A stretch of DNA of 501 nucleotides from a phage: sequence record MH607138.1; one strand, given 5' to 3'. Positions 1 through 501 of this stretch are shown in pieces. The notes beneath the pieces were generated by a model. It searched no databases. It saw only the letters and a program-made list of their open reading frames with translations, and was not told the DNA's origin. How positions within the stretch are numbered: the stretch's first letter is position 1; every line of letters starts with the position of its first letter. A program made the translations under genes and the position numbers.

Positions 1-501
1 ATGCAGATCTTCAACATGCGTACCAACGACGAAGGTGTTCTGGGTCTGCGTCTGACCCTGTACAAAGACACCCGTGGTTTCTGGACCATCGGTGCTGGTA
101 TCTGGACCGTTTGCGCTAACCCGGTTTGCGCTGGTGCTCTGGACCGTATGATCGGTCGTAAATGCAACCCGACCGTTTGCCTGCTGAAAGCTCGTAAACA
201 GTTCAACAAAAAAGTTAACAAAGCTGGTCGTGGTGCTATCGCTGGTAACGCTTCTGTTAAACCGGTTTACAAATCTCTGAAAGCTGGTCTGGCTTCTGCT
301 CTGGTTAACATGGCTTTCCGTCGTGCTTCTTTCCCGTACAACGTTGCTTTCCGTTCTCTGCGTCTGCTGAAAAAACAGAAACGTTGGCGTAACCTGAACG
401 CTGGTAAAGCTTGCCGTAAATGGTACCGTCAGACCCCGAACCGTGCTAAACGTGTTATCAAAACCTGGGCTGGTGGTAAAGTTTCTCGTCGTGACATCGA
501 A
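1..501 (+). CDS. Phage T4-type lysozyme-like muramidase (GH24 / endolysin fold), synthetic codon-optimised variant; 167 codons, 3' end open (no stop codon in window)
   Basis: Seen in sequence: ATG at 1-3 and frame +1 open across all 167 codons (501 = 167 x 3). The other two forward frames hit stops early (e.g. TGA at 52-54 in frame +2, TAA in frame +3 near 116-118). Translation aligns by eye along its full length to T4 lysozyme as I recall it: MxIFxM..DEG at the N-terminus, LRLxxYKDTxGxxTIGxG, IGRxCN, KPVYxSL, INM, SLRxLxxKRW, WYxQTPNRAKRVI. Catalytic residues are conserved: Glu11 (nt 31-33), Asp23 (nt 67-69, = T4L Asp20), Thr29 (nt 85-87, = T4L Thr26). Codon usage is strictly one codon per amino acid (cgt, ctg, ggt, gct, aaa, acc, ccg, tct, gtt, aac, gac, gaa, cag, ttc, tac, atc, tgc, tgg, atg), so the DNA is a back-translated design. 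Product assignment rests on recalled T4L sequence, not a database search. Confidence 0.88.
   Translation, partial: MQIFNMRTNDEGVLGLRLTLYKDTRGFWTIGAGIWTVCANPVCAGALDRMIGRKCNPTVCLLKARKQFNKKVNKAGRGAIAGNASVKPVYKSLKAGLASALVNMAFRRASFPYNVAFRSLRLLKKQKRWRNLNAGKACRKWYRQTPNRAKRVIKTWAGGKVSRRDIE

What the first reader, a model, noticed from the sequence alone, without database searches (positions are those of the whole stretch)
1..501. Strict one-codon-per-amino-acid usage: the DNA is an in-silico back-translation, not a natural gene
Across 167 codons only 19 distinct codons appear, one per amino acid (all 19 Arg are cgt, all Leu ctg, all Gly ggt, all Ala gct, all Ser tct, all Lys aaa, and so on). No natural gene has zero synonymous variation over 500 nt. 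The chosen codons are the classic E. coli high-expression set. This makes the window a synthetic construct, so nucleotide-level signals (repeats, restriction sites, GC skew) carry no biological meaning; only the encoded protein does.
Basis: seen in the sequence. Interest (0 to 1): 0.7.

Follow-up and report, generated by a model that had tools for sequence, protein, structure and literature searches.

The report
Back-translated artificial T4-type lysozyme variant
The 501 bases are a computer-made reverse translation (one fixed E. coli "best" codon per amino acid) of a heavily altered, very positively charged relative of the phage RB69/T4 lysozyme, so this is a design artefact and not a natural gene.

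Summary
Frame 1 is one open frame of 167 codons using 19 distinct codons for 19 amino acids, with no synonymous variation. In E. coli's most biased genes the lowest count in any 167-codon window was 31 codons. All 17 degenerate choices are the top codon of ribosomal-protein and elongation-factor genes, and the chance probability is about 1e-32. No natural DNA resembles it.

The encoded protein belongs to the T4-lysozyme family (PDB E = 1.7e-31). Its closest natural relatives are Mosigvirus (JS09/RB69) gene e endolysins at 57-58% identity.

The protein does not look natural either:
- 30 of 81 family-invariant positions are changed.
- The substitutions are nearly random in kind.
- Acidic residues were selectively replaced by K, R or N, giving net charge +31 against +4 to +7 in natural T4-like relatives.
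- The Pfam score is half that of natural relatives.

This is a "one amino acid-one codon" back-translation of an artificial lysozyme variant. Who made it, and by what method, cannot be told from the sequence. Biological interest is low.

The parts
1..501 (+). Complete back-translated coding sequence: 167 codons, ATG at base 1, no stop codon, one codon per amino acid. Encodes a T4-lysozyme-family (GH24) variant.
   Evidence: codon table; natural-gene control, P about 1e-32; T4 lysozyme E = 1.7e-31 over residues 1-159; PF00959, 24.2 bits.
31..33 (+). GAA, Glu11: aligns with the catalytic Glu11 of T4 lysozyme; retained.
   Evidence: Alignments. The role of Glu11 comes from established knowledge of T4 lysozyme.
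37..45 (+). Three-codon insertion (V13-L14-G15) relative to every natural relative aligned.
   Evidence: Exact placement within 'EGVLGL' is ambiguous by one or two residues.
46..93 (+). Retained blocks LRLTLYKDT and GFWTIG, identical to the RB69/JS09 parent. They include Asp23 (= T4L Asp20, nt 67-69) and Thr29 (= T4L Thr26, nt 85-87). One substitution lies between them (E to R at residue 25).
   Evidence: (retention string).
139..168 (+). Retained block LDRMIGRKCN (residues 47-56). It is identical to Mosigvirus lysozymes and differs from T4 (LDKAIGRNCN), which marks the parent as RB69/JS09-type and not T4.
316..354 (+). Degraded core segment: FRRASFPYNVAFR replaces the family-invariant FQMGVAGVAGFTN. 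Q, M and G, which are invariant in 13 natural relatives, become R, R and A.
   Evidence: Q107, M108, G109 nearly invariant, with the window as the exception; a run of 12 consecutive changed positions.
418..459 (+). Longest retained block, KWYRQTPNRAKRVI (residues 140-153), 14 residues identical to the parent.
   Evidence: (longest run 14; P = 0.014 against shuffles).
1..501 (-). Antisense frame that is open across the whole window (167 codons, 19 distinct, no stop). This is a by-product: none of the 19 sense codons is TTA, CTA or TCA. It is not a gene.

Best explanation
The window is the output of a one-to-one codon dictionary ('one amino acid-one codon', maximum-CAI reverse translation) built on the preferred codons of highly expressed E. 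coli genes. It was applied to a 167-residue protein with no stop codon added. That protein is not a natural sequence. It derives from a Mosigvirus (RB69/JS09-type) gene e endolysin, a T4-lysozyme-family muramidase. About 42% of aligned positions are replaced, there are four internal indels, and the C-terminus is rewritten. The changes strongly favour removing acidic residues and adding Lys, Arg and Asn, giving net charge +31. Unaltered stretches survive as blocks, including the catalytic Glu/Asp/Thr positions. This pattern fits a sample from a generative or heavily noised in-silico process, or a crude charge-directed redesign. It does not fit evolution. Shown here: the codon rule, the absence of natural DNA, the family and closest parent, and the statistics of the changes. 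Inferred: that the protein is artificial, and that if expressed it would probably be a poorly folded, weakly active or inactive lysozyme. The second inference rests on changes at many invariant positions: FQMG to FRRA, Leu7 to Arg, His31 and its Asp70 partner both lost, and Arg95/Arg96 lost. Those residue roles come from my knowledge of T4 lysozyme.
For: Codon rule: 19 codons for 19 amino acids. The natural minimum is 31 per 167 codons, 17 of 17 choices equal the top codon of ribosomal-protein/EF genes, and P is about 1e-32. Only 10 of 17 match ordinary genes. [quoted passage not shown] No natural DNA. Family: T4 lysozyme E = 1.7e-31; PF00959 24.2 bits. Parent: JS09-type 58.5%, RB69 57.2% and T4 46% identity. 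None of 1,180 phage records reaches 60%. The best of 5.8 billion clustered proteins is 56%. The exhaustive search of 1.84 billion representatives gives only 45 hits at E <= 1e-3, none above 48% identity, although that library even holds engineered T4L chimeras such as PDB 6xmv. Unnatural character: 30 of 81 columns invariant in 12 natural T4-like lysozymes are changed. Only 6 of 69 new residues occur in any of 11 other homologues. Mean BLOSUM62 of the substitutions is -0.90 (14% positive), against -0.35 to +0.26 for natural pairs, including one at 36% identity. The random expectation is -1.27. Pfam score is 24 bits against 48-52 for natural relatives. Acidic residues are kept at 4 of 18 positions against 86 of 141 for the rest (P = 0.002), and 12 of 14 lost acids became K, R or N. 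Retention is clustered in blocks (P = 0.0014).
Against: Nothing in the sequence names the tool or the purpose. The substitutions are slightly more conservative than random (P about 0.01-0.02) and the catalytic triad is kept, so some functional awareness or design intent cannot be excluded. Retention at invariant columns (63%) is not significantly higher than at variable columns (50%; P = 0.11). This is odd for a well-trained family model and fits crude noise better. Structure prediction could not test foldability, because the natural control was predicted as badly as the window. Patent and synthetic-construct sequence divisions were not searchable as such.
Confidence: 0.9

Rival explanations
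1. A purposeful engineered lysin. [quoted passage not shown] This differs from the best explanation only in intent and in expected function.
For: The charge shift is directional: 12 of 14 lost acidic residues became K, R or N, 19 of 69 new residues are K or R against 1 D or E, and net charge is +31. The catalytic Glu11/Asp/Thr positions and the basic C-terminal helix block are retained. The one-codon method is used for real expression constructs (PMC3056764).
Against: Fifty-five further substitutions are unrelated to charge. They hit invariant and, from knowledge of T4 lysozyme, buried positions (L7R, FQMG to FRRA, I to A, five Cys), and there are four indels. A rational supercharging protocol would not do this. 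There is no stop codon, tag or cloning site. No paper in the held library contains the sequence strings, and the search for 'supercharged' with 'T4 lysozyme' found only 4 papers with passing mentions, none in a title or abstract; I did not open them.
Confidence: 0.08
2. A faithful back-translation of a genuine natural protein from an unsampled, very divergent phage. The DNA would be artificial but the protein real.
For: Family membership is clear and the catalytic residues are present. Phage sequence space is incompletely sampled.
Against: It keeps residues specific to Mosigvirus (LRLTL, LDRMIGRKCN, ALVNM, KWYRQ) yet breaks 30 of 81 positions invariant across T4-like lysozymes. Its substitutions are less conservative than those of a natural homologue at 36% identity. 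Net charge is +31 against +4 to +7 for natural T4-like relatives. The Pfam score is half that of relatives. Nothing above 58.5% identity appears in 5.8 billion clustered proteins or 50,697 phage genomes.
Confidence: 0.02
3. A natural gene with extreme translational codon bias.
For: None beyond the fact that the codons are those favoured in highly expressed E. coli genes.
Against: Even tufA, fusA and the ribosomal-protein genes use at least 31 codons per 167 and take the preferred codon at only 50-75% of sites. P is about 1e-32. No DNA match exists anywhere. The natural relatives of this protein live in AT-rich T-even-like phages with quite different codons (69-75% nucleotide identity only in the most conserved parts).
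Confidence: 0.003

Closest known systems
'One amino acid-one codon' / maximum-CAI reverse translation for E. coli (as in Optimizer or GeMS, PMC3056764; JCat-type output, from my own knowledge)
   Same: Every instance of an amino acid gets the single favourite codon of a set of highly expressed host genes. The window follows this at 167 of 167 codons, and 17 of 17 degenerate choices equal the top codon of ribosomal-protein/EF genes.
   Different: There is no stop codon and there are no flanks, tags or restriction-site edits that a construct meant for cloning usually carries. The tool cannot be identified.
Gene e endolysin of Mosigvirus phages (RB69, JS09 group); T4 lysozyme family, Pfam PF00959, glycoside hydrolase family 24
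   Same: Same length class and collinear alignment over residues 1-159. Identity is 57-58.5% to Mosigvirus lysozymes and 46% to T4. The catalytic Glu11, Asp20 and Thr26 equivalents and the WYRQTPNRAKRVI helix are retained.
   Different: 30 of 81 invariant family positions are changed, including FQMG to FRRA. There are four internal indels. Net charge is +31 against +7 for the parent, with no His and five Cys. The Pfam score is 24 bits against about 52.
Language-model-generated artificial phage lysozymes (ProGen; bioRxiv 10.1101/2021.07.18.452833)
   Same: An artificial PF00959-family sequence at 40-90% maximum identity to natural proteins, made in silico and then reverse-translated for E. coli.
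   Different: The ProGen sequences are reported to reproduce natural per-position conservation patterns and were vendor codon-optimised. The window protein does not respect conservation (retention at invariant versus variable columns, P = 0.11) and uses a strict one-codon dictionary. No link to that set was found or tested.
Supercharged proteins (surface Asp/Glu replaced by Lys/Arg; recalled from the literature on +36 GFP, not checked here)
   Same: Selective loss of acidic residues in favour of K, R or N, and a very high positive net charge.
   Different: Supercharging changes only exposed polar positions and keeps the core and the length. Here most changes are unrelated to charge and hit conserved positions, and there are indels.

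Membership tests
One amino acid-one codon back-translation (synthetic DNA) | Exactly one codon per amino acid over the whole coding sequence | tested here: met
   19 codons for 19 amino acids and none with two codons. Natural minimum is 31 codons per 167.
One amino acid-one codon back-translation (synthetic DNA) | The chosen codon is the favourite of the host or of its highly expressed genes | tested here: met
   17 of 17 degenerate amino acids use the top codon of E. coli ribosomal-protein/EF genes; only 10 of 17 match ordinary genes, so a high-expression table was used.
One amino acid-one codon back-translation (synthetic DNA) | No natural nucleotide counterpart | tested here: met
   BLAST against phages, plasmids and E. 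coli genomes; exact k-mers in viral, genome and metagenome contigs. Patent and synthetic-construct divisions were not searchable.
T4-type lysozyme (Pfam PF00959, GH24) | Significant match to the family profile above the curated threshold | tested here: met
   24.2 bits against a cut-off of 22.3, which is marginal. Natural relatives score 48-52 bits. Pairwise match to T4 lysozyme is E = 1.7e-31.
T4-type lysozyme (Pfam PF00959, GH24) | Catalytic Glu11, Asp20 and Thr26 (T4 numbering) | tested here: met
   Glu11, Asp23 and Thr29 of the window align with them. The roles of these residues come from established knowledge.
T4-type lysozyme (Pfam PF00959, GH24) | Conservation of the positions invariant among T4-like endolysins (for example FQMG, EAE, L7) | tested here: not met
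   30 of 81 invariant columns are changed. Q107, M108, G109, E63 and E65 are nearly invariant, with the window as the deviant.
T4-type lysozyme (Pfam PF00959, GH24) | Two-lobed alpha+beta lysozyme fold | tested here: inconclusive
   Single-sequence AlphaFold2 gave pLDDT 59.5 and Foldseek found no significant match. The natural parent control was equally poor at 54.5, so the test has no power.
T4-type lysozyme (Pfam PF00959, GH24) | Muramidase activity | not testable with these tools
   Needs expression and a cell-wall lysis assay.
Natural protein-coding gene | Synonymous codon variation, and substitutions relative to homologues that are conservative and respect invariant sites | tested here: not met

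The most novel reading that the evidence does not exclude
The protein is a deliberate, still functional, hyper-cationic (+31) redesign of an RB69-type endolysin. It would keep the catalytic triad and the basic C-terminal helix, and might cross the Gram-negative outer membrane or kill bacteria non-enzymatically. The window would then be its expression-ready gene.
Probability: 0.05. Interest if true: 0.3.

Novelty: already known. Interest (0 to 1): 0.07.

Why it matters
It matters mainly as quality control. A scan for natural genomic novelty should set this window aside, because its nucleotide-level properties follow from a codon dictionary and carry no biology. Those properties include the codon bias, the open antisense frame, the short repeats and the stop-codon pattern in the other frames. 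The protein adds little. It is a degraded or redesigned copy of one of the best-studied enzymes, with no sign of evolutionary shaping. It would become modestly interesting only if provenance or experiment showed that it is a working engineered lysin.

Tried and rejected
(1) Structure prediction as a foldability test. Single-sequence AlphaFold2 gave pLDDT 59.5 for the window and 54.5 for the natural parent P0001, so the test cannot discriminate. Foldseek on the poor model gave only meaningless hits, best E = 0.23.

(2) Nucleotide-level mutation of the natural RB69 gene as the source of the amino-acid changes. Only 31% of changes are reachable by one base change, against 37% for shuffled changes. 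Rejected.

(3) Frameshifted segments as the source of the divergent stretches. Rejected by inspection, because identities are interspersed residue by residue in register.

(4) T4 itself as the parent. Rejected, because the window shares the residues specific to Mosigvirus and is 46% identical to T4 against 57-58.5% to RB69/JS09.

(5) Literature look-up of the peptide and DNA strings found nothing. The search for 'supercharged' with 'T4 lysozyme' returned 4 papers with passing mentions only, which I did not open.

(6) RNA families and repeats: nothing beyond a 14-nt pair caused by a repeated AGN/AGK-A peptide.

(7) A conservation-aware generative model as the specific source. Not supported, because retention at invariant and variable columns does not differ significantly (P = 0.11). 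Not excluded either.

Full report
**1. The observation**

The window reads as a single open frame on the + strand. It runs from ATG at base 1 to base 501, 167 codons, with no stop. Only 19 codons occur, one for each of the 19 amino acids present (His is absent).

As a control I took 50 kb of E. coli K-12 holding the ribosomal-protein operons, tufA and fusA. I slid a 167-codon window through 44 annotated genes.
- The lowest number of distinct codons was 31 (tufA).
- Even the most biased genes used the 'window' codon at only 50-75% of degenerate sites.
- For all 17 degenerate amino acids the window's codon is the most used one in the ribosomal-protein/EF genes.
- In ordinary genes of the same locus this holds for only 10 of 17, so a high-expression table was used and not a genome-wide one.
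- With the codon fractions of the highly expressed set, the probability of 167 preferred codons out of 167 is about 1e-32.

**2. No natural DNA**

- blastn (word 11) against 50,697 phage records finds only partial matches, at most 49% of the window at 69-75% identity. All listed hits lie in T4-like phage genomes, under genes mostly annotated as lysozyme or endolysin. This is what shared protein sequence alone would give.
- Plasmids give 22-50 nt chance hits.
- Megablast against 5,426 complete E. coli genomes gives nothing.
- A 39-mer and a 24-mer from the most conserved part are absent from the viral, species-representative genome and metagenome contig collections.
- No Rfam family matches.

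**3. What is encoded**

The translation matches T4 lysozyme chains in the PDB at E = 1.7e-31 over residues 1-159. It passes Pfam PF00959 (Phage_lysozyme) at 24.2 bits, just above the 22.3 cut-off.

The word-indexed search of 5.8 billion clustered proteins gives 13 hits. The best is a 'lysozyme R' cluster of T-even-like coliphages at 56% identity. tblastn against the phage genomes finds 1,180 records, none at 60% or more, and the top ones are Mosigvirus phages.

Global alignments give these identities:
- 58.5% to the JS09-type phage LNA2.
- 57.2% to RB69 gene e.

The window shares the residues that distinguish Mosigvirus lysozymes from T4: N9, LRLTL, GFW, LDRMIGRKCN, ALVNM and KWYRQ. The parent is therefore an RB69/JS09-type endolysin.

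The exhaustive HMMER search of 1.84 billion representatives finds only 45 proteins at E <= 1e-3, none above 48% identity. Its top hits are long T4L fusion constructs. P0014 matches PDB 6xmv, a hemolysin-endolysin chimera, over its full length (339 of 339 residues, E = 8.4e-226). That library therefore holds engineered sequences, yet it does not hold this one.

**4. The protein does not look evolved**

Against the parent there are 69 substitutions in 159 aligned positions, four internal indels and a rewritten C-terminus.
- Thirty of the 81 columns invariant among 12 natural T4-like lysozymes are changed. One example is FQMG to FRRA.
- Only 6 of the 69 new residues occur at that column in any of 11 other homologues.
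- The mean BLOSUM62 score of the substitutions is -0.90, with 14% positive. Natural relatives at 65-81% identity give -0.31 to +0.26, and one at 36% identity gives -0.35.
- Random replacement gives -1.27 +/- 0.15-0.18, so the changes are only slightly better than random (P about 0.01-0.02).
- Natural relatives score 48-52 bits against PF00959, twice the window's score.

Two non-random features stand out.
- Acidic residues are selectively removed. They are kept at 4 of 18 positions against 86 of 141 for all others (P = 0.002). Twelve of the 14 lost became K, R or N. Among the new residues there are 19 K or R against one D or E. Net charge is +31, against +4 to +7 in natural T4-like relatives.
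- Unchanged positions are clustered in blocks, with runs of 14, 13 and 10 residues. There are 59 transitions against 78 expected (P = 0.0014).

Retention is not significantly tied to family conservation: 63% at invariant columns against 50% at variable ones (P = 0.11). The changes are also not explained by single-base mutation of the RB69 gene (31% against a 37% null).

**5. How it was most likely made, and what it would do**

[quoted passage not shown] That method assigns the favourite codon of a set of highly expressed host genes to every instance of an amino acid (PMC3056764).

The protein is most simply read as an in-silico derivative of a Mosigvirus endolysin. It could be a generative-model sample, a heavily noised copy, or a crude charge-directed redesign. 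The sequence alone cannot decide which.

Published language-model lysozymes of the same Pfam family are reported to keep natural conservation patterns and were vendor-optimised (bioRxiv 10.1101/2021.07.18.452833). This sequence does neither.

The equivalents of the catalytic Glu11, Asp20 and Thr26 are present. From established knowledge of T4 lysozyme, however, several changes hit buried or stabilising positions. These are L7 to R, M106 to R within FQMG, loss of the His31-Asp70 pair, and loss of R95/R96. I therefore infer a poorly folded, weakly active or inactive enzyme. This could not be tested, because single-sequence AlphaFold2 was as poor for the natural parent (54.5) as for the window (59.5) and the fold search on that model was meaningless.

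**6. Comparison and verdict**

The window passes every test for a one-codon back-translation. It belongs to the T4-lysozyme family by sequence, but it fails the conservation test a natural member would pass.

I add one point: the protein also appears artificial, so it too carries little biological meaning. Both the construction method and the protein family are well known. Interest is low. The only reading with some interest is a deliberately hyper-cationic yet functional lysin, which I put at about 5%.

Noticed in passing
window 1-501, - strand, frame in register with the sense codons: The antisense strand is also open over the whole window (167 codons, 19 distinct, no stop). None of the 19 sense codons is TTA, CTA or TCA. 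This is a by-product of the codon dictionary that an ORF finder could mistake for an overlapping gene.
   Followed up: yes
window 1-3 and 499-501: The coding sequence fills the window exactly. ATG is at base 1, the last codon is GAA (Glu167), and there is no stop codon, ribosome-binding site, tag or cloning site. The protein is 3-5 residues longer than its natural relatives (162-164 aa), as if its length had been set to 167 residues (501 nt) or the record had been cut there.
   Followed up: partly
window + strand, frames 2 and 3: Stops in the off-frames are monotonous. All 6 in frame 2 are TGA, and 12 of 13 in frame 3 are TAA. This is another consequence of the restricted codon set.
   Followed up: no
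window 240-253 and 399-412: The only direct repeat of 14 nt or more (13 of 14 bases identical) corresponds to the repeated peptide A-G-N/K-A. It is explained by the codon dictionary.
   Followed up: yes
L002 (phage RB69, AY303349.1) 301-789: The RB69 record annotates gene e from locus position 316, which is Met6. Yet the homology, and the canonical MNIFEML N-terminus shared with T4 and other relatives, start at an in-frame ATG at 301. The deposited start appears to be five codons too late.
   Followed up: partly
P0014-P0028 (representative protein library): The top hits of the 'genomes and metagenomes' representative library are proteins of 258-514 aa with the lysozyme match at internal positions. 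P0014 matches PDB 6xmv, a hemolysin-endolysin chimera, over its full length (339 of 339 residues, E = 8.4e-226). Engineered T4L fusion constructs therefore sit in that library as cluster representatives.
   Followed up: partly
window protein, whole length: The composition is unusual for the family. There is no His, five Cys (natural relatives have 0-3) and five Trp. Ala, Arg and Lys together make up 56 of 167 residues.
   Followed up: partly
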